Source: Trypanosoma brucei
Lineage: Eukaryota
DNA: 64,000 nt
Assembly (NCBI GenBank): GCA_000002445.1
Contig: CH464491.1
Span: 608,001 to 672,000 of the forward strand
Reading direction: 5' to 3'
The notes beneath the pieces are model-generated. The model was not told where the DNA came from and ran no database searches. It worked only from the letters and a program-made list of their open reading frames with translations. Of the stretch, positions 9,575 to 54,072 are shown piece by piece. Position 1 is the first letter of the stretch. Each line of letters opens with the position of its first letter. Position numbers and translations under genes: made by a program.

Positions 9575-10300
9575 ATGTACAATAACGACTCGGCGGCAGG
9601 CGGCGACGCGTTGCAGGAGACTTGTGTGGACGCCATAACCAATATGGCGCGGCGCCTTGACCCCCAAGCACTCACAAAGGTTACCCAGTCGCTTCAGGAC
9701 ATGCTGGAGGAGAACCGTCAGCAGGTCGCGAACCGACGTGGCCGGGGGGGTTATCAGCAACACCAGCACCACCAGCAGCCACATCACTTCGGGCACCGTG
9801 GCAACGCGCGTCCGCCGCACGCAAATCGTCAATGGGGAAGCAACAATAACAGCAGGAACTACTATCAGTCTTCCAACGGTTACGATAACGGTAAATACCA
9901 GCGCGGTGGGCGTCCTCACCAGCACAACGACTGGAACGCGTCAAGTCGCCGCCATCAATCTCGGGGAGGTGGACGGGACTACGGTAACAGAGACGAAGAA
10001 CGGGTGTCAAACACAAACAGAGATCACAGTAACAGAGACGGGGACCGAAGCCCAGTCGCAGGCAACCGTTCTCCACCACGGGGACATCGGGAGGGAGCGG
10101 GTGCTCGCTCGAGTGGTCCCCACAACAGCAAAGTGGAGGAGGAAAATGAGCGGGGCGCGACCGAGAAACCATGTGAAGGGGGGAATGAGCGACCTCATCA
10201 CGGCCGGCACTGGGGCGGAGGTCGTGGAGCGGGTCGGGTCCGTCGCGGAGAGCGTCGACCCAACGGCCATAACGATGCCAAGGCAGATGGGCCTTCCTAA
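9575..10300 (+). CDS. hypothetical RG/Q/H/N-rich low-complexity protein (241 aa)
   Basis: ATG-initiated ORF. It is rich in RGG/RGGGR and NR/HQ stretches reminiscent of RGG-type RNA-binding tails. The frame assignment is ambiguous because GC-rich sequence also leaves two overlapping ORFs open (9657..10526 on +, and 9681..10409 on -). Confidence 0.4.
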   Translation: MYNNDSAAGGDALQETCVDAITNMARRLDPQALTKVTQSLQDMLEENRQQVANRRGRGGYQQHQHHQQPHHFGHRGNARPPHANRQWGSNNNSRNYYQSSNGYDNGKYQRGGRPHQHNDWNASSRRHQSRGGGRDYGNRDEERVSNTNRDHSNRDGDRSPVAGNRSPPRGHREGAGARSSGPHNSKVEEENERGATEKPCEGGNERPHHGRHWGGGRGAGRVRRGERRPNGHNDAKADGPS

Positions 10301-12192: not shown

Positions 12193-12894
12193 ATGATGGC
12201 TGAATCAAGCGCGAAAGAGATGGAAGCGAATCAGGTTTCCGCGGCTGGCGATCAAACCGCTAAGGCTGATGATCGATATGTTATTATTGACAGGGGCGTT
12301 AAGCGACATTTGCTCAATCGCCCGTGGACACTTTGGTATGATTCGGTTTCTACGTATGATTGCAAACAATGGGAGCTTTCTCTTATCGAGGTGATGACGG
12401 TACGCACGGTGGAGGATTTCTTCGCGATGCTTCACTACTGTAAACCTCCCCATGTCCTCCGTGTTTCAGCACAGTACCATTTTTTCCGTGAGGGCGTTAA
12501 GCCAATGTGGGAGGATCCCAACAACAAAGCTGGTGGGAAGTTGTGGGTGAGCCTCGATGATAAAACCATGACGGACAAGAGTGGAGCTGCAGGTGGCGGA
12601 AAGACGAGAAAGGATAATGGTGCCGATGCGGATAAGAAACCAGAACTGGACACCGTTTGGGAAAATGTGCTCATAGCTCTGGTAGGTGAGTATCTTGATT
12701 ATGGTGTGGAGGGAGAACACATTATGGGTGTCGTGTTGACAAAGCGGAAATACTGCAATCGCATTGCGCTGTGGCTAAAAGACGCATCGGACTCCGACGC
12801 CGTTGCTGCCATTGAAAAGCAGTTGGTGAAGGAGGCGGGTTTATTACCCGCAACGAAACCCATCTTCACAGCCCATGGCGCTAGCAAGGCCTAA
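12193..12894 (+). CDS. EIF4E1: eukaryotic translation initiation factor 4E (cap-binding protein)
   Basis: eIF4E signature motifs are present: HLLNRPWTLWYD (the HPLxxxWTLW cap-binding Trp pair), FFREGVKPMWEDPNNKAGGKLW (the FKxGIxPxWED and GGKW motifs), and ENVLIALVGE. At 233 aa it is the size of the small kinetoplastid EIF4E1-type protein. The symbol is inferred from my memory of T. brucei chromosome 11 synteny. Confidence 0.85.
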   Translation: MMAESSAKEMEANQVSAAGDQTAKADDRYVIIDRGVKRHLLNRPWTLWYDSVSTYDCKQWELSLIEVMTVRTVEDFFAMLHYCKPPHVLRVSAQYHFFREGVKPMWEDPNNKAGGKLWVSLDDKTMTDKSGAAGGGKTRKDNGADADKKPELDTVWENVLIALVGEYLDYGVEGEHIMGVVLTKRKYCNRIALWLKDASDSDAVAAIEKQLVKEAGLLPATKPIFTAHGASKA

Positions 12895-22321: not shown

Positions 22322-23164
22322 CGTGTTGCGTTTTTTTTCTGGTCGAAATAAAGCTACCATCAGAAGGTGAATTTGTTCCTTCCCTTCCACGCACATACCG
22401 ACGGACCGCGGAGGCGGGGAAACATGGCAATGCATTCCCTTCTCAGAAGTTGGTGGTTCTTTATCGGTTTTCCCGGTTTTTGCTTTTGTTTTCCAATTCG
22501 CTGTTAAAAATGAAAATCAGAGTCGAAAGGTGACGAAAAGAAATGTCTGAGGGATGAAACAACTGTTAGCGACGGTAAGCTGATGCTATATTGTGACGAC
22601 TGTGGCTCCGTCACTATTGCGTAGTGTATTTTTTTTATTCCGTTGCTTGCATGTACATGTAATACGGACAGCTTCACAACTCCGAGAGTGATTTGGGGTA
22701 CTCGGAGCCGCAAGTGCACGAGTTAAGTTGATGCCTGTGTGCGTGCAAATGAGTGGGTGCTTGAGGATACTTTATGGTGTGGTTATTTTCCTATTTCCCC
22801 CCCCTTGCTATTTGTGGCCTGCAGTGCCGTCGTACGTCGTATGCGTTCGTAAGCTTCAATTCCTTTGACTTTGTTGGTGGAATTACCCCGCGATAGTCGG
22901 CATCGCTCATGTGAGGTAGAGGGAGGTGGGATTATTATCTTCTGGGGTTCTGAAACCTTCAGCAAGTTTTGCTTGTTCACCCTCTCCCTTCTGCTTGCCA
23001 TTTTCAATTTTTTCCTTTTTTTAGTGCGGTAAGGGCGACCGTTGATGAGTAGGGTTGTTTTTAAAGCAAGGTTTTGAGGATCGATAGGAGAGCAGACTGA
23101 CAAAACAAAAAGGCCGTAGAATTTTCTTTTATTTTTTGCGTAATCGTTCTGAGGCTTGACGATC

Positions 23165-26100
23165 ATGACTACATGGCTCTTCAATGTAAGTGTCTTGCAT
23201 CTGTCTGCCTCCTTCTCTGAGCCGCGACTAGCCTCCTTCGCGGCTGAGGGACAACTCGCGTGTCGTATGTTTTTCAACGGAAAACCTCTCGATCTCACAT
23301 TTCAGCCCGCATCGGAGATGATTGGAGGGGGAAAACCCCAGTCTACTTTTCTTTACCGTATCCAATCCCTCACGGTTGCTGACCTTTTAAACATGTTGAG
23401 GCAGAGGTCTGTGAGGTTTTACATCGTTCCCGTGAAAAGGAACAGTGATCCGTTAGGTAAGGAGATACGGGCGGCCTGCAGAGCGACCACGAACATCATG
23501 TGCATAGCAGAGCGTGGGGGTGGGCTGCTTGAACTTCCCCTGACATCTGCTGCTTCAAAGGAAGAAGGAAATAGTGGTATTGTAGGTACTCTTTCGGTAT
23601 GTATTGCTTTTGATCAGTTAGCGGAAGTGGAGTTACGTCTCAAGGAGTTTTACGTCTCGGGCTTGGAAAATGGGATATATGGATTGCATTGTCGTCTTGC
23701 CCCCTTCAAGGAGGGTGTTGTGAGCAAGTTGACGCGGGCGCTGTCTGGCACCGCTCGGTGGACTGACGCCGAAGTGCCTATGGCGAAGTATCGGGGTGTG
23801 CTGCGTAACTTAAAAAAGCATCAGTTTGCTATAGCTGTTTATTTGATAGATGGCAATAATAACGAAAGGCCAGTCGCGTCGTTTGAAGTGGATTTAGCAA
23901 TCAAAAATACAAGTGCGTCCTGCAAAGAGATAACAATCCCATTCTCCATGAGTGATGGAAAGACATCAACAACGGTGAACGGGGCTCTTCAACTGAGCGG
24001 GTTACCGACCTTTGAGGACGAAATGCAAAAAATATTACGAGCAGGTCCGGCATGCGTTGACACTGAAGATGAAAAGAAAGAGAAAAACAAATTCTCAGAT
24101 CCCGAAGGGGCCAAGAGCTCAGAGGCCGAGAGCACCACAGAAATTGATACAGAAAACTCAAGTATGGGTCGCCATCTCCCCGAATATTCGCAGGGATCGT
24201 CCCCTCCAATTGTTTCGCGCACATCAACCCCTACAAGAGCGTCACCACGGGATATTTCTTCCCCACCTAGCGAAGATCAAGATGCTGAAGATTGTCGATT
24301 CAGCTTTCCGAGTAAAAACAGCATTTCTGCCCTTTGGCACTCTGAAGCAGATCTGGAATCTCCAACACCGCCACCTGAGAAGGACATGGATGTGCATGGT
24401 GATGTTCCACCGCCAACACCGCCACCTGAGAAGGACATGGATGTGCATGGTGATGTTCCACCGCCAACACCGCCACCCGAGAAGGACATGGATGTGCATG
24501 GTGATGTTCCACCGCCAACACCGCCACCCGAGAAGGACATGGATGTGCATGGTGATGTTCCACCGCCAACACCGCCACCTGAGAAGGACATGGATGTGCA
24601 TGGTGATGTTCCACCGCCAACACCGCCACCCGAGAAGGACATGGATGTGCATGGTGATGTTCCACCGCCAACACCGCCACCCGAGAAGGACATGGATGTG
24701 CATGGTGATGTTCCACCGCCAACACCGCCACCTGAGAAGGACATGGATGTGCATGGTGATGTTCCACCGCCAACACCGCCACCCGAGAAGGACATGGATG
24801 TGCATGGTGATGTTCCACCGCCAACACCACCACCCGAGAAGGACATGGATGTGCATGGTGATGTTCCACCGCCAACACCGCCACCCGAGAAGGACATGGA
24901 TGTGCATGGTGATGTTCCACCGCCAACACCGCCACCCGAGAAGGACATGGATGTGCATGGTGATGTTCCACCGCCAACACCACCACCCGAGAAGGACATG
25001 GATGTGCATGGTGATGTTCCACCGCCAACACCGCCACCCGAGAAGGACATGGATGTGCATGGTGATGTTCCACCGCCAACACCGCCACCCGAGAAGGACA
25101 TGGATGTGCATGGTGATGTTCCACCGCCAACACCGCCACCCGAGAAGGACATGGATGTGCATGGTGATGTTCCACCGCCAACACCGCCACCCGAGAAGGA
25201 CATGGATGTGCATGGTGATGTTCCACCGCCAACACCGCCACCCGAGAAGGACATGGATGTGCATGGTGATGTTCCACCGCCAACACCGCCACCTGAGAAG
25301 GACATGGATGTGCATGGTGATGTTCCACCGCCAACACCACCACCTGAGAAGGACATGGATGTGCATGGTGATGTTCCACCGCCAACACCGCCACCCGAGA
25401 AGGACATGGATGTGCATGGTGATGTTCCACCGCCAACACCGCCACCCGAGAAGGACATGGATGTGCATGGTGATGTTCCACCGCCAACACCGCCACCTGA
25501 GAAGGACATGGATGTGCATGGTGATGTTCCACCGCCAACACCGCCACCCGAGAAGGACATGGATGTGCATGGTGATGTTCCACCGCCAACACCACCACCC
25601 GAGAAGGACATGGATGTGCATGGTGATGTTCCACCGCCAACACCACCACCCGAGAAGGACATGGATGTGCATGGTGATGTTCCACCGCCAACACCACCAC
25701 CCGAGAAGGACATGGATGTGCATGGTGATGTTCCACCGCCAACACCACCACCCGAGAAGGACATGGATGTGCATGGTGATGTTCCACCGCCAACACCACC
25801 ACCCGAGAAGGACATGGATGTGCATGGTGATGTTCCACCGCCAACACCGCCACCCGAGAAGGACATGGATGTGCATGGTGATGTTCCACCGCCAACACCA
25901 CCACCTGAGAAGGACATGGATGTGCATGGTGATGTTCCACCGCCAACACCACCACCCGAGAAGGACATGGATGTGCATGGTGATGTTCCACCGCCAACAC
26001 CGCCACCCGAGAAGGACATGGATGTGCATGGTGATGTTCCACCGCCAACACCGCCACCCGAGAAGGACATGGATGTGCATGGTGATGTTCCACCGCCAAC

Positions 26101-27475
26101 ACCACCACCCGAGAAGGACATGGATGTGCATGGTGATGTTCCACCGCCAACACCACCACCTGAGAAGGACATGGATGTGCATGGTGATGTTCCACCGCCA
26201 ACACCGCCACCCGAGAAGGACATGGATGTGCATGGTGATGTTCCACCGCCAACACCACCACCCGAGAAGGACATGGATGTGCATGGTGATGTTCCACCGC
26301 CAACACCACCACCTGAGAAGGACATGGATGTGCATGGTGATGTTCCACCGCCAACACCACCACCCGAGAAGGACATGGATGTGCATGGTGATGTTCCACC
26401 GCCAACACCACCACCCGAGAAGGACATGGATGTGCATGGTGATGTTCCACCGCCAACACCGCCACCCGAGAAGGACATGGATGTGCATGGTGATGTTCCA
26501 CCGCCAACACCGCCACCCGAGAAGGACATGGATGTGCATGGTGATGTTCCACCGCCAACACCGCCACCTGAGAAGGACATGGATGTGCATGGTGATGTTC
26601 CACCGCCAACACCACCACCCGAGAAGGACATGGATGTGCATGGTGATGTTCCACCGCCAACACCGTCACCTGAGAAGGACATGGATGTGCATGGTGATGT
26701 TCCACCGCCAACACCGCCACCTGAGAAGGACATGGATGTGCATGGTGATGTTCCGATGGTTGTGGAGGGTAGTGCAAATGTTGATTCTTCATGTGTGCTT
26801 GTTTGTAGTGGAGGTGCTGAAGAAGTTGTTGATGTCCCTGCAGATCTTGAATCGGTTGATGATGAAAATGTTTATGTTTCCGAATTGCAATCCACTGCTG
26901 TTTTGAATGAAGATGTTACATTGTTGTTAGATGAATGTGACAGAATGGTGGTAGGTCGTGACGAGGGTGCCTCTGGTAGATCTGTTGGCGTGCCAACACT
27001 ACAGGCTTCTAATTTAATAGAATTTCCACCGCCATCAAATGGAAAAGAACCTGCTACCTCGAGGGAAGAGGCAGCTGATCTTCTTTTAACACGTGAGAGG
27101 GAACTGCTCGATGCGATGGAACATGAGAATGAGTGTATTGACATGCTTGTGCAGTCTCTTAGAAGGATGGATAATGCATCTGAGAAGGATAGGGCTGCTT
27201 ATTGTGCCGAAGTGGACAGGTTGCAGCAGCAGTTTAAGCTGCTGGATGAAGCGGAGGAGGAGCTGACGTTGCTGCTGGCGCGTGCCACCCAAAGGTTTAA
27301 TTTATGTCGTGAGGAACGTCGGAAATCACAGTTGGAGCTCTTGGAGGCGCGCGCGCGGAAGGAAACGTACAGTTTGGCACTTGCTATGATGGACCGGGAG
27401 TTGCGTACACAGTTTGATAACGATGGCAACCGTCGCCCAGGAGGGATGTTCCTATCCAAAAGTGACTCTTCATAA
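23165..27475 (+). CDS. large tandem-repeat protein
   Basis: This is one continuous ORF, with the first ATG at 23165 (track start 23156 is TTG). Protein architecture: a unique ~400-aa N-terminal region, then 47 tandem 17-aa repeats (PPPTPPPEKDMDVHGDV), then a ~240-aa C-terminal region with coiled-coil character (LLTRERELLDAMEHENE...LQQQFKLLDEAEEELTLL). The repeat DNA is nearly invariant, with only synonymous changes plus one Pro-to-Ser change. No stop codon interrupts the array. Confidence 0.85.
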   Translation: MTTWLFNVSVLHLSASFSEPRLASFAAEGQLACRMFFNGKPLDLTFQPASEMIGGGKPQSTFLYRIQSLTVADLLNMLRQRSVRFYIVPVKRNSDPLGKEIRAACRATTNIMCIAERGGGLLELPLTSAASKEEGNSGIVGTLSVCIAFDQLAEVELRLKEFYVSGLENGIYGLHCRLAPFKEGVVSKLTRALSGTARWTDAEVPMAKYRGVLRNLKKHQFAIAVYLIDGNNNERPVASFEVDLAIKNTSASCKEITIPFSMSDGKTSTTVNGALQLSGLPTFEDEMQKILRAGPACVDTEDEKKEKNKFSDPEGAKSSEAESTTEIDTENSSMGRHLPEYSQGSSPPIVSRTSTPTRASPRDISSPPSEDQDAEDCRFSFPSKNSISALWHSEADLESPTPPPEKDMDVHGDVPPPTPPPEKDMDVHGDVPPPTPPPEKDMDVHGDVPPPTPPPEKDMDVHGDVPPPTPPPEKDMDVHGDVPPPTPPPEKDMDVHGDVPPPTPPPEKDMDVHGDVPPPTPPPEKDMDVHGDVPPPTPPPEKDMDVHGDVPPPTPPPEKDMDVHGDVPPPTPPPEKDMDVHGDVPPPTPPPEKDMDVHGDVPPPTPPPEKDMDVHGDVPPPTPPPEKDMDVHGDVPPPTPPPEKDMDVHGDVPPPTPPPEKDMDVHGDVPPPTPPPEKDMDVHGDVPPPTPPPEKDMDVHGDVPPPTPPPEKDMDVHGDVPPPTPPPEKDMDVHGDVPPPTPPPEKDMDVHGDVPPPTPPPEKDMDVHGDVPPPTPPPEKDMDVHGDVPPPTPPPEKDMDVHGDVPPPTPPPEKDMDVHGDVPPPTPPPEKDMDVHGDVPPPTPPPEKDMDVHGDVPPPTPPPEKDMDVHGDVPPPTPPPEKDMDVHGDVPPPTPPPEKDMDVHGDVPPPTPPPEKDMDVHGDVPPPTPPPEKDMDVHGDVPPPTPPPEKDMDVHGDVPPPTPPPEKDMDVHGDVPPPTPPPEKDMDVHGDVPPPTPPPEKDMDVHGDVPPPTPPPEKDMDVHGDVPPPTPPPEKDMDVHGDVPPPTPPPEKDMDVHGDVPPPTPPPEKDMDVHGDVPPPTPPPEKDMDVHGDVPPPTPPPEKDMDVHGDVPPPTPPPEKDMDVHGDVPPPTPPPEKDMDVHGDVPPPTPPPEKDMDVHGDVPPPTPSPEKDMDVHGDVPPPTPPPEKDMDVHGDVPMVVEGSANVDSSCVLVCSGGAEEVVDVPADLESVDDENVYVSELQSTAVLNEDVTLLLDECDRMVVGRDEGASGRSVGVPTLQASNLIEFPPPSNGKEPATSREEAADLLLTRERELLDAMEHENECIDMLVQSLRRMDNASEKDRAAYCAEVDRLQQQFKLLDEAEEELTLLLARATQRFNLCREERRKSQLELLEARARKETYSLALAMMDRELRTQFDNDGNRRPGGMFLSKSDSS
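24356..26755 (+). repeat. 51-bp tandem repeat array, 47 copies, in frame within the CDS 23165..27475
   Basis: The unit is ccaacacc[g/a]ccacc[t/c]gagaaggacatggatgtgcatggtgatgttccaccg, repeated head-to-tail. The only variable positions are two third-codon positions (ccg/cca and cct/ccc) and a single c>t change (Pro to Ser) in unit 46. The periodicity leaves three + frames and three - frames open, which explains the 800-960-aa 'ORFs' in every other frame. Confidence 0.97.
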
Positions 27476-28030: not shown

Positions 28031-29389
28031 ATGGCCGACCACGAGTTGTCCGAGTCCGAGAAGGCAATTGAACGATATAAGGTGAAGAAGCTCATCCAAA
28101 TGCTCGAGAGTGCTCGCGGTATGGGCACAAGCGTCATAAGCATTTACATGACCCCAAAGGAGCAGATATCTGGCATGGTAACCAAACTGAACAACGAGTA
28201 CGGAACGGCCTCCAACATCAAATCGCACACCAACAAGCTTAGCGTTCAAAGTGCCATCACTGCCTCTCTCGGTAGGTTAAAGCAGTACAACCGACTCCCA
28301 CCTAATGGGCTCCTCCTCTACTGCGGTACCGTCCTCACGGCAGAAAACAAGGAGAAAAAACTTACACTTGATATTGAGCCTTTCAAGCCGGTTAGCCGGA
28401 GCCTATACCTCTGTGACAACAAGTTCCACACCGAAGAGCTCCACCGCATGCTGGAGTCTGATGAGAAGTTTGGATTCATTGTTGTAGACGGTAGTGGCAC
28501 AACCTATGCAACTCTTTGTGGGAGTGTGAAGGAGAAGCTGAGTTCATTCACCGTAGAGCTACCGAAAAAGCACGGAAGAGGTGGTCAAAGTAAAAATCGT
28601 TTCGCACGTATTCGTATGGAAAGGCGCCACAACTACCTTCGCAAGGTGGCCGAAGGCGCCACGCAATTATTTATAACAAACGACCGTCCAAATATCGTGG
28701 GGCTCGTGCTTGCCGGTTCTGCTGAGTTCAAGGAAGTGTTGTACCAGTCAGATCTGTTTGATCCGCGCCTGAAAGCGATCGTGGTGAAGGTTGTAGATGT
28801 TGCCCACCCGGGCGATGTGGGCCTCAATCAGGCCATAGATCTCGCGGCGGATGCGCTGTCTGGAGTTAAGCTCGTACAAGAGAAGAAACTACTTCAGGGA
28901 TTCTTCGATCAGATCGCTTGTGATACGCAGCTGTATTGCTTTGGTGTTCAGGATACCCTGAAGTGCTTGGAGGCGGGCGCGGTGGAAACACTTATTGTGT
29001 ATGAAGACCTTAACATTTACCGCTACACTGTTGTGAAGAATCGCGGAGCAGACGATGAGGAAACCTTCGTCCATGTTATGTCGGAGGAAGAAGCAAAGAG
29101 GTCTAATATACACATGCAGGAGTCCGGGAAGACACGCAATGAAATTGAACAGGAAGACTTTGTCGACTGGCTCGCGACAAACTACCGCAAGTTTGGTTGC
29201 GCCTTGGAGTTGATCACGAATCGCAGCCAGGAGGGAACTCAATTCGTCCGCGGTTTTGGAGGGATTGGAGGTGTGTTGCGGTATAAACTTGATATTATTG
29301 CTTTGCGTGATGTGGAGAAAAAAGAAGATGATGAGGAGCGCATTGCAGCGAACAATGAGGAGTTTGACTTCGACGACGACTTTATGTAA
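28031..29389 (+). CDS. ERF1: eukaryotic peptide chain release factor subunit 1 (eRF1)
   Basis: ATG at 28031. The NIKS stop-codon recognition motif is present (GTASNIKSHTNKL). The GGQ peptidyl-tRNA hydrolysis motif is present (KHGRGGQSKNRFARIR). Overall it is collinear with eRF1 domains 1-3, with an acidic C-terminal tail (EEFDFDDDFM). Confidence 0.95.
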   Translation: MADHELSESEKAIERYKVKKLIQMLESARGMGTSVISIYMTPKEQISGMVTKLNNEYGTASNIKSHTNKLSVQSAITASLGRLKQYNRLPPNGLLLYCGTVLTAENKEKKLTLDIEPFKPVSRSLYLCDNKFHTEELHRMLESDEKFGFIVVDGSGTTYATLCGSVKEKLSSFTVELPKKHGRGGQSKNRFARIRMERRHNYLRKVAEGATQLFITNDRPNIVGLVLAGSAEFKEVLYQSDLFDPRLKAIVVKVVDVAHPGDVGLNQAIDLAADALSGVKLVQEKKLLQGFFDQIACDTQLYCFGVQDTLKCLEAGAVETLIVYEDLNIYRYTVVKNRGADDEETFVHVMSEEEAKRSNIHMQESGKTRNEIEQEDFVDWLATNYRKFGCALELITNRSQEGTQFVRGFGGIGGVLRYKLDIIALRDVEKKEDDEERIAANNEEFDFDDDFM

Positions 29390-41537: not shown

Positions 41538-43124
41538 ATGAGCCGTCCGTATACCAAAGGAGGTGGCCCCAACCGAGCCGACAGCCGAAGGCGACGGAAA
41601 GGTGACTACGATCGTGATGTCCTCACCGATCGCGGTGGACATAATAGCAGTTGGAATGCTAAACCTGATAGAAGTCGGCGAGGCAGTCGGGGTGGTTCCG
41701 GTCCGCCGGGAAAAGGGACTGGCGGTAGTGATAATCAAGTCCCGCAGTCAACAATGATGACAACTCTGTTGGACCTTCTCTTTCAGAAGTCTTCCAGTGT
41801 CATCTTCAACCGGGAGTCTGGCATGTTAAATCTTTCAAACTTCAGTCAGTCTCAGGATCTTACTGATGTTCGAAAGAGTGTGGACTTTAACAACGTCACA
41901 TTCTGCCGGAGCCTTGTGAGTGTCATCAAGAGTCACATGGGGTCGATGCTACGGGCTGTTGCTGTCAACGACAATAAGATAACCAAATTGTCTGTTTTCT
42001 TGTCGGCGTTGGTGGAGGCTGACCTTCACATTGGGATCACAGCGTTATCGGCCACCGGGAACACCATTGACGACCTCTCCTTTATTGGACCCCTGAAACG
42101 TTTTGTTAACCTTGGTGAATTAGTTTTAAAGGAGAACCCCGTAACGAGACGGGAGGATTACAATTCAAGTGTGATTCAAAAGGTCAAGTCACTCATGATG
42201 CTTGACGACAAGGTTATTAACCGCGCACCGTTGCGCCTCCCCAACCCAATACCATCAAGCCTTTCGCAACTTCAGTTTCAGGTTTTATATTTCCTTGAGG
42301 CTGACGTTTTCTCCGCTGCGGCGGAAGGGAAATGGGATACCCTGACGGGGGTCTATGCTAAAAATGCCCTCTTTAGTGTTAGTCGTTCAGAGGAACCCAT
42401 TGCGTGCCGCATCCCATTTGATGCGAAGCACAAATCAGACACACTAAACCCAACCCAGCGCAAGGTAATGACAGACGACTTCGTTTTTTTGCGTAAGAAT
42501 GTGCCATGGCGGAATCTTCACGTAGAAATTCATTCTTTACGTTCCATCGCTTGCGGGCAAACGAAGGCTGTGAAAGCCATCAATATCCTCGGAGGGGGTG
42601 AGAGAAAGTTTTTTTCCGTATCGCATGAACTCAATGGTAATGCCAATGTTGTGTTCCTATCGGACAACATGGCGGTACCAACATGTGTCCTAACAATTCA
42701 TGGAAGGTTGTTTTGGCACTGGTCACCAATAGATGGTGGCGAAAAGATATTTGCGCGCGATGATGCCCCTTTTGTGAGTTGTTTTTTCCACCGCACCATG
42801 TCCTTAACGTTGGACCCAAACGGGACGACATGGTCGGTGCACAATGATATGATGTTTCTTCGCCCTGACCGACTCCTCCGGCAGGAAAGTGGTGAAAAGG
42901 CCCTTCCTATGTTCTTTGCGAATGATCCCATGCGAATTGAGGAAATGCGGCGTCGGTACCTTCCACAAGCAAAAACTGATGTGATGAAAACCATTGTGGA
43001 AGCCGTAAGCAGCGATGCCGACGTTGTAGGTTTTATTCAGAATTGTCTTGCGAAACTGCCACCGGATCAACTGGAAATCGCCTTGTCGGCAAGTGATGTC
43101 ATGGCAAACTTACTTGGAGGTTAA
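41538..43124 (+). CDS. MEX67b: NXF/Mex67-family nuclear mRNA export factor paralogue lacking the CCCH finger (Mex67b-like)
   Basis: It is collinear with the ORF at 52345 from the LRR region onwards. Aligned blocks include MLNLSNFSQSQDLTDV versus VLNLTQFKEIPDLTDV, GELVLKENPVTRREDY versus REIVLRDNPIANRSDY, and KSLMMLD versus KKLMPSLIGLD. The N-terminus is basic and RG-rich with no C3H motif. The LRR is followed by an NTF2-like region. Confidence 0.7.
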   Translation: MSRPYTKGGGPNRADSRRRRKGDYDRDVLTDRGGHNSSWNAKPDRSRRGSRGGSGPPGKGTGGSDNQVPQSTMMTTLLDLLFQKSSSVIFNRESGMLNLSNFSQSQDLTDVRKSVDFNNVTFCRSLVSVIKSHMGSMLRAVAVNDNKITKLSVFLSALVEADLHIGITALSATGNTIDDLSFIGPLKRFVNLGELVLKENPVTRREDYNSSVIQKVKSLMMLDDKVINRAPLRLPNPIPSSLSQLQFQVLYFLEADVFSAAAEGKWDTLTGVYAKNALFSVSRSEEPIACRIPFDAKHKSDTLNPTQRKVMTDDFVFLRKNVPWRNLHVEIHSLRSIACGQTKAVKAINILGGGERKFFSVSHELNGNANVVFLSDNMAVPTCVLTIHGRLFWHWSPIDGGEKIFARDDAPFVSCFFHRTMSLTLDPNGTTWSVHNDMMFLRPDRLLRQESGEKALPMFFANDPMRIEEMRRRYLPQAKTDVMKTIVEAVSSDADVVGFIQNCLAKLPPDQLEIALSASDVMANLLGG

Positions 43125-43180
43125 GAAGGGAATATAAAGAAGACATCAAAGTTGTAATACCAGTGCAGTCCTAGTTCGTC

Positions 43181-43210
43181 TGTGTTTGTGTGTGTGTGTG
43201 TGTGTGTGTT
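43181..43210. repeat. (GT)n microsatellite
   Basis: tgtgtttgtgtgtgtgtgtgtgtgtgtgtgtt, just downstream of the Mex67b-like gene. Confidence 0.9.
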
Positions 43211-43820
43211 TTAAGTGGGAGAAGCGACGAGTTGGAAAGAAAATATTAATCCTCCAGAAGCATGGACCCAAATAACTTTTTAAAAGGGCAGGGTACCTTT
43301 TTTTTTTTCGTGTGGTGCTTGAAACTAAAAGGGACCTGTGGCCCAATGTAAGTGCCGGAGAATGAAACAAATGGCGAGGTGACGCGTTTTAACAAACTGA
43401 CCCAGGGAAGAGGCAGTGCCACCTACTCAAGTGTGCATATATGTGCGCTAAGGTAGTTGATGGACAGGAACTAAAAAGAAAAAAAGGGGAAAAAGCAATC
43501 ATGGACTAAGGGGAGTGAAAACTAATAAAACAAAGTTTAAAAAAAATAGAGAGCAGGAAATGAAGTGTTTCCGTTTCTGCATCGCAGGATGTGGAAAAGT
43601 GCGGTTCAACGTGTCGTCCGTTTGGGTTGTCATTATCACGCAGGCACATCTCAATGATATTATCCGTGCACTCATAATGTTCATGTTTCGAGGGAATGCC
43701 ACGACGTACAAGTTGCAGAATTCACTTCGCTTATTTCTACGTCTCATTTCAACGTATTGTTTTAGTGGTAATTGATGCGAGGATTATGACTGTAGCGAAA
43801 CAAATATGCGAATGTTCAAA

Positions 43821-43846
43821 TGTGTGTGTGTGTGTGTGTGTGTGTG
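43821..43846. repeat. (GT)n microsatellite
   Basis: tgtgtgtgtgtgtgtgtgtgtgtgtg. Confidence 0.9.
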
Positions 43847-43905
43847 GGAAGCCTCAACGCTGCCGGCTGGAACTACACGCTGTTTCTCAACCGTATAAGC
43901 CAAAA

Positions 43906-43909
<4 letters not shown>

Positions 43910-43939
<30 letters not shown>
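43910..43939. repeat. (TA)n microsatellite
   Basis: tatatatatatatatatatatatatatatg. Confidence 0.9.
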
Positions 43940-43941
<2 letters not shown>

Positions 43942-45466
43942 TTGCATGTATGCATAAGATTGGAGTGGAGGACAATCAACTCGCTCCCCCCTCATCCTGT
44001 CGTAATTTTTCTCCATTTTCTTCTCCTTACCTGTTTGTGCAGTTGTATCTGGTCATGATTTTTTTCTTTCTCTCCTTCCCCCTTGTTTCTGTTGTTTCAT
44101 TCTGTGTTATTTACCTTCTGCGTTCTCTCTTTTAATTACACTCCAGAACTTGTGATCTTTTCGGCGTGTTATGTTTTGAGGAATCTCATGCACGCGGAGC
44201 GCACCTTCTTAAAATCACATGTGATAATTACTATTACAATTCTGTGGTAGCGGTTATCATTATAATAATAATAATTATTATTGCATGTGCCATCTGGTTT
44301 CAGAGAAGCTTTTAAAGGATATAAATATCCATTCAAGATGCAGCACAAGAGAACTTGTACACAAAGGTGTTAAGACATAGTCATTACATAGGGTAGCCAA
44401 GGTTCCATTCATTAGTTTACAATTTGCATTTTTAAAGGGATACAAGCGCATATTTGGTTTATTTTTGTTTTGTTTTTCACATTAGTTTCACATCTTCACA
44501 TATGTTCCGCTTTCTCTCCCGCCTCTTTTTCTTTCTTTTTCTTTCTTTCTTTTTGCATGCTCTTCTCTCTCCGTCATCTTCACCACTGAATGCTGATTTG
44601 TTATGCGGCTCGTAAGTCTCCCACCCGATTATTGGCTAACGTATAATTTGGAATTTTCACGAATACATGCACTCTTTAAATATGCTGATTTTTTTCTTTT
44701 AAAAAAAACAATAAGAAACAAATAAGTTATAAATAAATATATATATATATATTTATTTATTTATTTAATGTATTTACATATGTTTCGATGTATTTGTTCA
44801 CTTGTTTAAATTTTTTGTTTTTTTTTGTTGTTGTTGGAGGAGGAGGAGGAGGAGGGATGAAAGGGTGACGGATGTTACTTCACTGCGTTTGCCCTTAGGT
44901 CCGTTTTCATTTCAACAAAACAAAAACCTCCTCCCTTCCCTCCCTTCTGAAATGGAAAAAGAATTATGTGAGCGACGAACCAATGGAGGAATGGACGGCC
45001 ATACAAAAAAAAAAACAACACGCGCACAAAAAAAATAATAATAATAAATGGAACACACATGTACGAAGAAATTTAAACTATAACAAAGATACACAGACAC
45101 GAAAAAAAAAATAAATGAAAAAAATACAGAGATCATCAGTGCACACTGAGCGTGGGGGGTGGGGGTGCAAACGATGAATTACATTTAATTTGCACACCAT
45201 TCTCTGTGAGTCTTATGACTTCATGTCATGGCAGCGCCCCCTGAGCATATGGAAGTTTTTGTGTTTTACTTCTCGGAGCCGCTTCAACTGCGCTGGAGTG
45301 TTGTGCTGCTTTTACTGCTACTGCTTTTATAGCTTTTGCAGTATTTACTGTGGTGCTTAGCTCTTTTAGCGCCCCGGTCTAACACAATTCGCATATTCAC
45401 ACGTCAACATATTTCCTCTTTGGAGTACATAAACACATAAACACATACACGCATACACAAATATGC

Positions 45467-45493
45467 ATATATATATATATATATATATATATA
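45467..45493. repeat. (AT)n microsatellite
   Basis: atatatatatatatatatatatatata. Confidence 0.9.
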
Positions 45494-45798
45494 CGCAAGT
45501 ACTCGCATCCATACGCACAGATGCGTGCATGTATTCATGAATAAATGATTATGTGCATGTGCATATTTGGGCGTTTGTTTCCCTTTTTTTTCTCTCTTTC
45601 CACCCTCCTTCCAATCAACACCTCCTGTTTCTTACGGGAGGAGGGAACGGGTCGGAAGCGCTGTGGTTTAGCCGTTTATAATTCCTTCCTTTTTTCTTTC
45701 CCTCTTCTTTGCGCGTCAGCCAGTTGGGAAGAAATATAATGGAAGTGAAGAGTGAAACGGTAATGGAATGCGTATTTCTGCTTGCGTTTATTTATATT

Positions 45799-45800
<2 letters not shown>

Positions 45801-45830
<30 letters not shown>
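45801..45830. repeat. (TA)n microsatellite
   Basis: tatatatatatatatatatatatatatat. Confidence 0.9.
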
Positions 45831-45833
<3 letters not shown>

Positions 45834-47302
45834 GTATTTGTATGTGCTTGTGTGCGTTTATGCCTGGGGGGGGGGGCGCTGTGTTTGCTTTAATTTATAT
45901 TTAATCGCACTAATGAGACAACTCACCTCAGGAAAGCTTGTGCCAACTCTGTTACGTGTGGTAAGACACAACAAAAAAAAGTTTCGTTTCAATATCAAAG
46001 ATAATAAAATAAAATAAAATACAAAAAAAAAGAGAACGATGTAGTTGAAACAAAATCACCAAAAAAAAAATATGTCTGGTCGTTTGTGGGTTTGAGGCAA
46101 GTTATCTCGCTTCTCTCCTTTTCCTCTCTTTTTGGTTTGTCGTTCGCTTATTTCTTCCTTTCGAGAAGGATGGAGGAGAACATTCTTTCACTTAATTATC
46201 CCTCTTTATTTAATTCATTTGCTTCTTCTGTTGACATGGTGTGGTGCGGTGCTTGAGGATGCAACTAATTTATTTATTTATTTTTTAAGTGAGCCTCGCA
46301 CCGGCTGTAATAATGTGAAAAAAAAACACTTTCTCACACCAGTGCGCGCACGAAGAAGCTGAAGCAAACATTATCGCTTGCATTCGTCGGTCATTTTGTG
46401 TGGGTGAAAAGGATGACGGGTGAGAGAAGGGAAAAAAGAAAGGAAAAGAAAGAAGTAAAAGAAAAGAGAGGCGTGTGTGTGTGAGAAAAGGAGAGTTGAA
46501 GAAAGGAGGAGCGGGGAAAAGACATAACATAACAAGACAAAACAAAATAAAAACAAAACAGAAATGAGAATCCGGACGCGGTGACTTCAGAGATTCCGTC
46601 GGTCTATGATTTATTTTTCTCTTTGGGCGATCAGGCGACTGTTGCGTGTGTGGGAGCGCAAACGTATTGCCTCCTTCCAAGTGCAGTTACTCACGTTATT
46701 AGCGGTCGGTTGTTCTTCCCCCCCTTTTTTGGTACTTGTGGGGTTACAATAGAGTTGTTGCTTTCGAACGAAGGAAAGACATGCAAATCTTTTTCAAAAA
46801 AACAAAAGAGAGGAGGAAAATGATGAAATCAACAACATTCCAACAGTAAATGCATTTTAATGAAAATCGAAACCGATGCGTAGTGAAGCGAACTTTTTTT
46901 TTTGTTTTGCTTTATCTTCTTTTTATTTTTAGCTACTAACCAGCGGAGAAGGAACCTTCTTCACCCCTGAAGGTTTGGTTACTTTCTAGGCATCTTTTGT
47001 CCGACGCCCTTCCGAGGCCAATGAATCTACTGAATTGTATACATTTGTAATTATGTATCACCACTGAAGCGTAATCGGTGTGATTTTCTCTATTTTCCAT
47101 TCAACATCTGCTTCATCATATTTATTACATGCACTCTTTCTTTTTTTCTTTTTTTTCCATTGTGGTGTTTTTTTTTTTTCAACTCTTTACAAGCTCACAA
47201 AGAAATAGACGTCGAGACAGGCAGGCATAAGTATATATATATATATATATATTACCTTTTATTTTCTTTTAGTTGTACTCCTCATATTTAGCTTTGGTTG
47301 TG

Positions 47303-52344: not shown

Positions 52345-54072
52345 ATGCCCAACCCATACAGGAAAAACAAGGATACATCGCGTATACCGTGTGTCTACTT
52401 TAAAAGAGGGTCATGCGCGAACAAGCACTGCCCATTTCTTCATGTGCGTGGCGGTGAAAAAGTCGGACACGAACCTGGGAAAGCACCAGGGGATGTGGGG
52501 ACAAACCTTCTTTGTACGATGTTGAAGTTGGTGTTTGAGAAACAGCAGCAGCGGGTGTATAACGCGGAAACAGGGGTCTTGAACCTGACGCAGTTTAAGG
52601 AAATTCCTGACCTCACGGATGTGGCGGGATCCATCAACTTTAACACACAGGCTTTCTGCCAGGCATTGTGTTCGACAATAAAGTCGCTTATTGTGCCTCC
52701 TCCATCAGCAATTCAACTGAAAGGCAATGGCATATTGTCGGTGTCACATCTAGCGATGCAGTTGGAAAAGGCAGACCTTCATCTGACGCTTCGTGCCATT
52801 TCATTAGAAGCCAACCTAATCAAGTCGGTTGAGTCATTGCAAGAGTTGAAGAAATTCACCAACTTGCGGGAGATTGTACTGAGAGACAATCCTATCGCAA
52901 ATCGGAGCGACTATCGGACAACTATTAAGAAATTGATGCCGTCGTTAATTGGTTTAGATGGAGAGTCCATATGTGTGCCCCCTTTAAGTTTACCGTGGCC
53001 TCAGTTCTCTCCGACGGGATACAGTGAGGCGCAGAAGCATGTGCTGCAGTTCATACAATGCGGGTTGTTAAACCCACTGGAAGGCGACGGTGCTTCCGGA
53101 GTTGCACACGGTGTAGACGCTGTTTCGGACTTGTACGCGGCAAATGCGGTTTTGACCCTCTCCCTCTCTTCGCCAGAAGTTGCTGTAAGCACGCCCATGC
53201 GCACGATGAACGGTGCGGCGGGTGTGCCGCAACAGCGGAACGTAATCAGGGATATTGTGAGTCTTCGGTTAAAACAAACTGAAAGTAATCACAACCTTCT
53301 GCACGGTGTAAAGTCGACTGTTGTTGCGCTTGGTCGGACGAAGGTGTGTTCTCAGATGGAGCACTGGTTGTACCCAAAGACCTTTAGGGTTCATCATTAC
53401 CTCCATAGCAGCGCTAGCACCGTCTTTCTTGACAATTCGTACCTCACAGGCCCGTCGCCCACAGCGATGAAAGTACCCGTGACAATAGTGACACTCCATG
53501 GCACCATGACGTGGAACAACACCGGTGTACCGGGTGATGCGACAACTATTGGCCCAATGACCATTCGGCGCAACTTCACTCGTGTGTTAAGTGTTACACA
53601 AGGGGATGCGGGACGCTGGCTAATCACTAATGACATGGTGTCGTTGTATTTGACGCCGAGTGGGTCATCTGCATCGTCGAAAAGTGGCAACGGAGTGCCT
53701 GAAACGACTCAACTGAGCGAGTGCCGCATTCTGCTCGACCCACGCAGCGACCGTAGCCGTGCGGAGGTACTCAGCCGAAAGAAGGACGTACCGGTAGAGG
53801 TGATTATGGCATTGTGTCAACACGTTGGTAACGATGCGGAGTTATTTACCGTGTTGGATGATATCCGCGGCGTGCCACTCAGTGCCTTTGAACACTGTGC
53901 CAACCTAGCAGGGGAGAATATCATGGAAAGCATTCAGATGTGTCGTTTAGTGAATCTTTTCGGGATGGCACCACAAAATGCATTGGAGATGCTTAGGCAC
54001 AATAACGGTAACTGGAGTGATACTGTTGCTGCGGTTGCTGCTACCGCGCCTGTGGCGGCAGTCCCGCAGTGA
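52345..54072 (+). CDS. MEX67: NXF/Mex67-family nuclear mRNA export factor with an N-terminal CCCH zinc finger
   Basis: An N-terminal C3H motif is present: CVYFKRGSCANKHCPFLH. It is followed by an LRR region (LNLTQFKEIPDLTDV, LRAISLEANLIKSVESLQELKKFTNLREIVLRDNPI), an NTF2-like middle domain and a C-terminal UBA-like tail. It is paralogous to the ORF at 41538. The kinetoplastid-specific CCCH on Mex67 is from memory. Confidence 0.8.
   Translation: MPNPYRKNKDTSRIPCVYFKRGSCANKHCPFLHVRGGEKVGHEPGKAPGDVGTNLLCTMLKLVFEKQQQRVYNAETGVLNLTQFKEIPDLTDVAGSINFNTQAFCQALCSTIKSLIVPPPSAIQLKGNGILSVSHLAMQLEKADLHLTLRAISLEANLIKSVESLQELKKFTNLREIVLRDNPIANRSDYRTTIKKLMPSLIGLDGESICVPPLSLPWPQFSPTGYSEAQKHVLQFIQCGLLNPLEGDGASGVAHGVDAVSDLYAANAVLTLSLSSPEVAVSTPMRTMNGAAGVPQQRNVIRDIVSLRLKQTESNHNLLHGVKSTVVALGRTKVCSQMEHWLYPKTFRVHHYLHSSASTVFLDNSYLTGPSPTAMKVPVTIVTLHGTMTWNNTGVPGDATTIGPMTIRRNFTRVLSVTQGDAGRWLITNDMVSLYLTPSGSSASSKSGNGVPETTQLSECRILLDPRSDRSRAEVLSRKKDVPVEVIMALCQHVGNDAELFTVLDDIRGVPLSAFEHCANLAGENIMESIQMCRLVNLFGMAPQNALEMLRHNNGNWSDTVAAVAATAPVAAVPQ

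What the first reader, a model, noticed from the sequence alone, without database searches (positions are those of the whole stretch)
24356..26755. Repeat units differ only at two synonymous third-codon positions and form four haplotypes (A-D), plus one Pro-to-Ser change in the penultimate unit
I read off unit types over the Thr-Pro-Pro-Pro codons. A is acaccgccacct, B is acaccgccaccc, C is acaccaccaccc, D is acaccaccacct. The order over units 1-47 is A A B B A B B A B C B B C B B B B B A D B B A B C C C C C B D C B B C D B C D C C B B A C A* A, where A* in unit 46 carries ccg>tcg (Pro to Ser). C-type units cluster in the middle and distal parts (units 25-29, 38-41). A/B units dominate the proximal part. 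That is a signature of local block duplication within the array. With one exception, variation is confined to silent sites, which argues for purifying selection on the peptide. It also gives usable markers for strain typing.
Basis: seen in the sequence. Interest (0 to 1): 0.55.

Follow-up and report, generated by a model that had tools for sequence, protein, structure and literature searches.

The report
Coding minisatellite in a trypanosome gene
This is a 47-copy, 51-base in-frame repeat inside a trypanosome-specific C2-domain/coiled-coil protein gene, and its silent variant pattern records recent block duplication rather than demonstrable selection, which makes it an ordinary though neatly structured coding minisatellite.

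Summary
Bases 24362-26754 hold 47 head-to-tail 51-bp units with no indels. The units differ only at positions 6 (G/A) and 12 (T/C), plus one C>T at 26666. The only slip is that the Pro>Ser codon is CCA>TCA, not ccg>tcg.

- **Block duplication:** real, but the clearest signal is a three-unit (153-bp) periodicity (P about 0.004), not simple clustering (lag 1 not significant). There is also a proximal-distal gradient, and A-type units sit at both ends.
- **Purifying selection:** not shown. Two silent sites out of three variable ones is expected by chance at P = 0.14-0.23. Fourteen other silent-capable third positions never vary, which indicates recent homogenisation (concerted evolution).
- **Typing by variant-repeat maps:** an established method in T. 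brucei.

No second isolate could be retrieved. This is a new member of a known kind, of low interest.

The parts
23165..27475 (+). Complete coding sequence, 1436 aa plus stop. It is the only frame that runs far beyond the array on both sides (400 aa before, 239 aa after).
   Evidence: both flanks are conserved in Trypanosoma orthologues in this frame
22977..23024 (+). Polypyrimidine tract followed by AG, about 140 nt upstream of the ATG. Candidate trans-splice acceptor (inferred from sequence only).
   Evidence: sequence read; kinetoplastid context
23165..24049 (+). N-terminal tandem C2-like beta-sandwich region (about residues 1-295), conserved across the genus Trypanosoma.
24050..24361 (+). 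Ser/Thr/Pro- and acid-rich linker with low conservation, between the C2 region and the array.
   Evidence: pLDDT <50 from residue 297
24362..26754 (+). 47 x 51-bp in-frame tandem array encoding (TPPPEKDMDVHGDVPPP)n. It is 35% Pro, has net charge -3 per unit and makes up 55% of the protein.
24416..24823 (+). Units 2-9, type string ABBABBAB: a three-unit (153-bp) block repeated 2.7 times.
24824..25129 (+). Units 10-15, CBBCBB: a three-unit block duplicated.
25589..25843 (+). Units 25-29, CCCCC: a run of single-unit expansions of the CCA...CCC type.
26048..26353 (+). Units 34-39, BCDBCD: a three-unit block duplicated.
26666..26666 (+). Singleton C>T in unit 46 (CCA>TCA, Pro>Ser), the only non-synonymous difference in the array.
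26755..27055 (+). Acidic, poorly conserved linker after the array. It contains an EFPPPS motif.
   Evidence: pLDDT <50 for the first ~32 residues of the model (window ~26954-27050), 62 for the next block
27056..27427 (+). C-terminal long alpha-helical (coiled-coil-type) region, conserved in T. rangeli, T. cruzi marinkellei, T. grayi and T. theileri orthologues.
   Evidence: AlphaFold2 helices 35-74 and 77-158 of the 173-aa query, pLDDT >90; alignment

Best explanation
The region is a coding minisatellite: 47 nearly identical 51-bp (17-codon) units inside the gene for a Trypanosoma-specific protein. The protein consists of an N-terminal tandem C2 fold, a disordered linker, the Pro-rich acidic repeat and a C-terminal long-helix region. 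The gene lies at the Tb927.11.2290 position of a T. brucei-type chromosome 11 polycistron. The units are kept alike by recent and probably ongoing expansion, contraction and homogenisation of the array (unequal recombination, replication slippage, gene conversion), that is, concerted evolution. The two synonymous transitions and one singleton missense change are neutral marks carried along by these events. They reveal duplications of three-unit (153-bp) blocks, a run of single-unit expansions, a proximal-distal gradient of the CCA variant, and older A-type units left at both edges. Shown: the array, its variant map, the lag-3 periodicity, the fold of the flanking domains, and restriction of the repeat to the two closest relatives. 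Inferred: the molecular mechanism of turnover. Also inferred is the role of the repeat as a long, extended, negatively charged polyproline-II-type spacer or multivalent proline-motif scaffold between a membrane-binding-type C2 module and a dimerising helix.
For: Array anatomy and exact variant map. Only 31 differences from consensus in 2390 bases, and none at 14 of the 16 silent-capable third positions. Lag-3 excess of same-type units: 23/44 against 13.5, P=0.0009 global and 0.004-0.005 with gradient-preserving shuffles, while other lags are at expectation. Six three-unit tandem duplications in register against 1.15 expected, P=0.012. Distal shift of CCA units, P=0.008. A units at both ends, P=0.008. 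All four combinations of the two sites occur with no association (Fisher P=0.74), as expected if units are repeatedly reshuffled. Relatives: only five in 1.84 billion representatives. Four are named Trypanosoma species; the fifth and closest (P0001) is an unnamed UniParc entry. P0001 has a different 16-aa repeat starting at the same residue (401) and sharing GDVPPxTxPP, while the four more distant ones have no repeat. So the array arose and was homogenised separately within a young lineage. C2 fold. Helical C-terminus. Precedent for identical, copy-number-variable coding arrays in T. brucei: the BRCA2 BRC repeats (PMC2408642).
Against: Only one assembly of one haplotype was available. Copy-number or map polymorphism, the direct proof of ongoing turnover, was therefore not observed. 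The lag-3 P value is about 0.03 after correction for the 6-8 lags examined. The edge-enrichment and gradient tests were chosen after seeing the data. The organism is diploid, and the order of units in a 2.4-kb array could be affected by assembly. The proposed function of the repeat has no experimental or homology support beyond composition and architecture. Pfam recognises neither the C2 region nor the repeat.
Confidence: 0.75

Rival explanations
1. One reading: the units are identical at the protein level because purifying selection removes amino-acid changes, and that is why variation is seen only at silent sites.
For: Two of the three variable positions are synonymous, and the only replacement is a singleton. 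The Pro-rich core GDVPPxTxPP is shared with the repeat of the closest orthologue (P=0.018). The array position is the same in both.
Against: There is no statistical power: Fisher P=0.12 and P(>=2 of 3 silent)=0.14-0.23 under neutrality. Fourteen of 16 silent-capable third positions are invariant in all 47 copies, which selection on the peptide cannot explain. The other half of the unit (EKDMDVH versus LELSD) and the unit length (17 versus 16 aa) differ between species.
Confidence: 0.15
2. Assembly artefact: the copy number and/or the order of unit types does not reflect a real chromosome. It would instead be a collapsed, expanded or allele-chimeric reconstruction of a repeat longer than the reads.
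For: The array (2.4 kb) exceeds short-read and Sanger read lengths, and the organism is diploid. No independent assembly could be found for comparison.
Against: The 51-bp register is perfect with no indels. Variation is confined to two positions that recur many times, and there is an ordered three-unit periodicity. Random misplacement of reads would blur rather than create such order. The reading frame is intact and joins two conserved flanks.
Confidence: 0.07
3. Recurrent mutation: the two variable positions are hypermutable CpG sites. The four unit types would then arise repeatedly by independent C>T/G>A transitions rather than by duplication and reshuffling.
For: Both common variant sites lie in two of the three CpG dinucleotides of the unit (positions 5-6 and 12-13), and both are transitions of the deamination type. 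All four combinations occur in linkage equilibrium.
Against: CpG observed/expected in the window is 0.96, so CpG is not generally mutable here. The third CpG (47-48) never varies. Independent mutation does not predict the lag-3 periodicity or the CCCCC run. The CpG coincidence was noticed after the fact.
Confidence: 0.03

Closest known systems
Trypanosoma brucei BRCA2 BRC-repeat array (Hartley & McCulloch 2008, PMC2408642)
   Same: An in-frame tandem array of virtually identical units inside a housekeeping-type gene in the transcribed chromosome core. It is absent or much smaller in other trypanosomes and is interpreted as a recent expansion with ongoing expansion and contraction. It is mappable by variant-repeat PCR.
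   Different: The BRC units are 132 bp, number 12-15 copies and have a known function (RAD51 binding). Here the units are 51 bp in 47 copies, the peptide has no known partner, and internal silent variants give a richer map.
T. brucei genotyping minisatellites MS42, CRAM and 292, and minisatellite variant repeat (MVR) mapping (MacLeod et al. 1999, 2001, as cited in PMC2481433)
   Same: Tandem arrays of tens of base pairs whose length and internal variant order are used to distinguish isolates. CRAM is also a coding repeat (the MVR details are from my own knowledge of those papers).
   Different: I could not establish whether this locus is one of those markers. No polymorphism data are available for it here.
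Human minisatellite MVR maps and satellite higher-order repeats (own knowledge: Jeffreys et al. 1991; alpha-satellite higher-order repeats)
   Same: Interspersion of a few unit variants, polarity along the array, less homogenised edge units and multi-unit periodicity created by block duplication.
   Different: Those are mostly non-coding. Here every unit is translated and the unit length is a multiple of three.
C2-plus-coiled-coil proteins (CEP120, CC2D1, T. brucei CC2D) and NT-C2 proteins (EHBP1/EEIG1 family)
   Same: N-terminal C2 beta-sandwich(es) combined with a helical or coiled-coil region. UniProt labels the T. cruzi marinkellei orthologue 'C2 NT-type domain-containing protein'.
   Different: There is no sequence-level match to any Pfam C2 family, relatives are found only in Trypanosoma, and a huge Pro-rich repeat is inserted between the modules.
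Proline-rich multivalent spacers such as formin FH1 domains (own knowledge)
   Same: Many short polyproline tracts separated by short linkers in a disordered segment.
   Different: No FH2 or other catalytic partner domain is present. No evidence here of profilin, SH3 or WW binding. The resemblance is compositional only.

Membership tests
Coding minisatellite / VNTR with interspersed variant repeats | Head-to-tail units of about 10-100 bp at high identity | tested here: met
   47 units of 51 bp, 98% matches, no indels
Coding minisatellite / VNTR with interspersed variant repeats | Unit length is a multiple of three and the open frame continues into conserved flanks | tested here: met
   51 = 3 x 17; 1436-aa ORF; flanks conserved in orthologues
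Coding minisatellite / VNTR with interspersed variant repeats | A few unit variants interspersed along the array | tested here: met
   Four types plus one singleton; string verified
Coding minisatellite / VNTR with interspersed variant repeats | Copy number and variant map differ between alleles or isolates | not testable with these tools
   No other copy of the locus is retrievable: exact-protein look-ups and a metagenome scan were empty. The genome collection covers only bacteria and archaea.
Higher-order repeat organisation | Variant pattern periodic at a multiple of the basic unit | tested here: met
   Lag 3: 23/44 against 13.5-15.5 expected, P=0.0009 to 0.005. Other lags are at expectation. 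About 0.03 after correction for the lags tested.
Sequence under purifying selection (dN/dS < 1) | Significant deficit of replacement relative to silent variation | tested here: inconclusive
   2 silent and 1 replacement variable sites over 12 and 39 sites: Fisher P=0.12. Cross-species motif conservation P=0.018.
C2 domain superfamily | Eight-stranded beta-sandwich fold matching solved C2 domains | tested here: met
C2 domain superfamily | Sequence match to a curated C2 / NT-C2 profile | tested here: not met
   No Pfam family at E<=1 for the window protein or for any of five orthologues. No PDB sequence match.
C2 domain superfamily | Ca2+ and/or phospholipid binding | not testable with these tools
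   Requires biochemistry
Trypanosomatid tandem-repeat cytoskeletal/antigen proteins | Large in-frame array of near-identical short units | tested here: met
Trypanosomatid tandem-repeat cytoskeletal/antigen proteins | Cytoskeletal or flagellar localisation, B-cell antigenicity | not testable with these tools
   The only literature trace of the inferred gene ID is a yeast two-hybrid hit with SF3a60, listed as 'hypothetical protein, conserved' (PMC3961280).

The most novel reading that the evidence does not exclude
The array is the length-setting element of an uncharacterised, Trypanosoma-specific tether. In this reading a tandem C2 module anchors to membrane, a C-terminal coiled coil dimerises or docks to the cytoskeleton, and between them lies a stiff, acidic polyproline-II rod of up to about 800 residues. 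The length of that rod would vary between strains in steps of 17 or 51 residues. The three-unit periodicity would then reflect a functional or recombinational super-unit rather than historical accident.
Probability: 0.1. Interest if true: 0.45.

Novelty: new member of a known kind. Interest (0 to 1): 0.2.

Why it matters
The locus offers a compact, fully readable example of concerted evolution in a translated minisatellite. Two silent markers are enough to reveal three-unit block duplications, edge effects and reshuffling. In practice it could serve as one more variant-repeat typing locus for T. brucei-group isolates now that long reads span 2.4 kb. It also carries a caution: near-identity of tandem coding units should not be read as purifying selection. 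The protein itself (tandem C2, Pro-rich repeat, coiled coil, genus-restricted) is uncharacterised and may be worth localising. Nothing found here would surprise a specialist.

Tried and rejected
- **Pfam scans:** searches with the N-terminal, C-terminal and repeat segments, and with five orthologues, found nothing meaningful.
- **PDB profile search:** the N-terminal profile against PDB sequences found nothing.
- **The search for homologous proteins:** searches with the N-terminal 400 aa and with profile A2 returned nothing. Orthologues do exist in that collection, so I attribute this to the word prefilter and draw no conclusion from it.
- **Exact-sequence look-ups:** the repeat protein, the neighbouring eRF1 and P0001 are not on record, so no second isolate or orthologous DNA could be compared.
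- **Metagenome scan:** the invariant 32-mer gave 0 hits.
- **BLASTP of repeat units:** composition correction suppressed the window-versus-P0001 comparison. I replaced it with an uncorrected local alignment against within-unit shuffles.
- **Literature:** searches for the repeat peptide and for old-style gene IDs found nothing. PNAS paper PMC27243 on minisatellite typing is not held, and the afdb50 fold library was unavailable.
- **Other ORFs over the array:** I rejected the three minus-strand ORFs and the second plus-strand ORF. They are by-products of a stop-free repeat and do not extend into conserved flanks.
- **CpG hypermutability:** rejected as the main cause of the four unit types.
Full report
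**1. The observation**

Tandem Repeats Finder reports a single large array in the window, at 24362-26754. It has period 51, 46.9 copies, 98% matches, no indels and score 4569. I anchored on the invariant 32-mer GAGAAGGACATGGATGTGCATGGTGATGTTCC. It occurs 47 times, always exactly 51 bp apart.

With the phase starting at ACA (Thr), the 46 complete units fall into five sequences.
- Four differ only at unit position 6 (CCG/CCA) and position 12 (CCT/CCC).
- The fifth is a single A-type unit (unit 46) with C>T at window base 26666.
- Unit 47 is A-type and diverges after base 44.

The array differs from its consensus at 31 of 2390 bases.

**2. What the array sits in**

All long ORFs in the 64-kb window are on the + strand, as in a kinetoplastid polycistron. 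Neighbours include:
- an eIF4E whose best solved relative is Leishmania IF4E-1 (12193-12894);
- eRF1 (28031-29389);
- two Mex67 paralogues, one with the N-terminal CCCH finger (41538-43124 and 52345-54072);
- PheRS-beta and a PGK-like protein.

The literature gives EIF4E1 = Tb927.11.2260, TbMex67b = Tb927.11.2340 (58 kDa; the window ORF is 528 aa) and TbMex67 = Tb927.11.2370. Counting genes in steps of ten from either anchor puts the repeat gene at Tb927.11.2290. This is an inference from synteny. It fixes the locus, not the strain or subspecies. The only paper that mentions that ID lists it as 'hypothetical protein, conserved' among yeast two-hybrid hits of SF3a60.

The correct frame is 23165-27475, encoding 1436 aa. 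It has 400 residues before the array and 239 after it. The other four ORFs over the array are stop-free by-products of the repeat. A polypyrimidine tract plus AG lies about 140 nt upstream of the ATG.

**3. The protein**

- **Sequence families:** Pfam recognises nothing.
- **Relatives:** an exhaustive HMMER search of 1.84 billion representatives found only five real relatives. Four are from T. rangeli, T. cruzi marinkellei (named 'C2 NT-type domain-containing protein' by UniProt), T. grayi and T. theileri. The fifth and closest is a UniParc-only sequence, P0001, at 38-42% identity.
- **C-terminus:** this region is also conserved and is predicted as about 120 residues of long helix at pLDDT >90.
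- **Repeat:** the unit TPPPEKDMDVHGDVPPP is 35% proline with net charge -3. The array makes up 55% of the protein.

The four more distant orthologues have no internal repeat at all. P0001 has a 16-aa repeat, PLELSDGDVPPDTVPP, starting at residue 401, the same residue at which the window protein's array starts. The two units share GDVPPxTxPP. That match scores above 98% of within-unit shuffles (P=0.018). So the repeat is a young, lineage-restricted insertion between two older modules, and each species has homogenised it to its own unit.

**4. Structure of the variation**

| Test | Observed | P |
|---|---|---|
| Adjacent units of the same type (lag 1) | 17/46 | 0.20 |
| Runs test, G/A site | – | 0.049 |
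| Runs test, T/C site | – | 0.46 |
| CCA-bearing units (C, D) shifted distally | mean position 30.3 against 24.0 | 0.008 |
| A units near either end (1, 2, 44, 46, 47) | – | 0.008 |
| Same type three units apart (lag 3), global shuffles | 23/44 against 13.5 | 0.0009 |
| Lag 3, shuffles confined to blocks of 6-16 units (gradient kept) | 23/44 against 14.9-15.5 | 0.004-0.005 |
| Three-unit tandem duplications in register | 6 against 1.15 | 0.012 |

- Lags 1, 2, 4, 5 and 6 are at expectation.
- The lag-3 signal is visible as (ABB) x2.7 at units 2-9, (CBB) x2 at units 10-15 and (BCD) x2 at units 34-39.
- After correction for the lags examined, the periodicity remains significant at about 0.03.
- The two sites, 6 bp apart, show all four combinations with no association (Fisher P=0.74).

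Together this is the picture expected of an array that grows and is reshuffled by unequal exchange, slippage or conversion. It shows some three-unit events, some single-unit events (the CCCCC run at units 25-29) and less homogenised edges.

**5. Selection**

The unit has 12 synonymous and 39 non-synonymous sites. Of the 51 possible transitions, 16 are silent. Two silent and one replacement variable position give Fisher P=0.12. The chance that at least two of three neutral changes are silent is 0.14 (all changes) to 0.23 (transitions only). More tellingly, 14 of the 16 third positions that could vary silently are invariant in all 47 copies. Selection on the peptide cannot do that; recent common ancestry of the units can. 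The shared GDVPPxTxPP core across species is the only, and modest, hint of constraint.

**6. Side observation**

Both common variant sites lie in CpG dinucleotides, and both are deamination-type transitions. However, CpG observed/expected in the window is 0.96, and the unit's third CpG never varies. I treat this as a coincidence noted after the fact. Recurrent mutation also cannot explain the periodicity.

**7. Comparison with what is known**

Near-identical, copy-number-variable coding arrays are well documented in T. brucei. The BRCA2 BRC repeats (14 identical 132-bp units) vary in number between strains and alleles and are interpreted as a recent expansion with ongoing expansion and contraction. 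Variant-repeat mapping and minisatellites (MS42, CRAM, 292) are established genotyping tools in this organism. I could not determine whether this locus is one of those markers.

**8. What could not be done**

No second copy of the locus could be obtained. Exact look-ups of the window's proteins returned nothing, the repeat core has no match in the metagenome collection, and the genome collection holds only prokaryotes. The decisive tests therefore remain open: whether the map varies between isolates, and whether replacement variants are depleted in a population sample. Assembly error cannot be formally excluded either. The perfect register, the restriction of variation to two recurring positions and the ordered periodicity argue against it.

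**9. Verdict**

This is an ordinary coding minisatellite in an uncharacterised, genus-restricted protein with a C2 fold, a Pro-rich repeat and a C-terminal long helix. It is a new member of a known kind, of low interest.

Noticed in passing
window 24365-26761 (unit positions 5-6, 12-13, 47-48): Both common variant positions fall in CpG dinucleotides and are deamination-type transitions, while the unit's third CpG never varies. CpG observed/expected in the window is 0.96, so there is no general CpG depletion.
   Followed up: partly
window 24365-24466 and 26558-26754: A-type units occupy both ends of the array (units 1, 2, 44, 46, 47; P=0.008), as if edge units had escaped homogenisation. This would make A, not the commonest type B, the older variant.
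   Followed up: partly
P0001 residues 401-464, compared with window 24365 onward: The closest orthologue (UniParc only, species not named) starts a different 16-aa repeat, PLELSDGDVPPDTVPP, at exactly the same residue number (401). The sequence then breaks off after about 3.5 copies and looks like a collapsed or truncated gene model.
   Followed up: partly
window 27021-27038: An EFPPPS motif lies in the acidic linker between the array and the helical C-terminus. It resembles the (D/E)FPPPP class of proline ligands, but no partner domain is known here.
   Followed up: no
window 9575-10300: This is an RGG/Gly-Arg/His-rich 241-aa ORF at the position of Tb927.11.2250 (called TbFOP in a 2025 preprint). 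It is overlapped by several long spurious ORFs in other frames and on the other strand.
   Followed up: no
window 43125-47270: This unusually long, AT-rich (36-41% GC) gene-free stretch after the Mex67b gene carries perfect (TG)13-15 and (AT)13-20 microsatellites at 43181, 43821, 43910, 45467 and 45789. These are further potential typing markers.
   Followed up: no
window 41538-43124 and 52345-54072: Two Mex67 paralogues lie 9 kb apart in the same polycistron, and only the second carries the N-terminal CCCH zinc finger. This matches published TbMex67b and TbMex67.
   Followed up: partly
tool behaviour (versus 26, 28): The word-indexed protein search returned no hits for the N-terminal domain or for its six-sequence profile. 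Four orthologues are nevertheless representatives in that same collection, so negative results from that tool for this protein carry no weight.
   Followed up: yes
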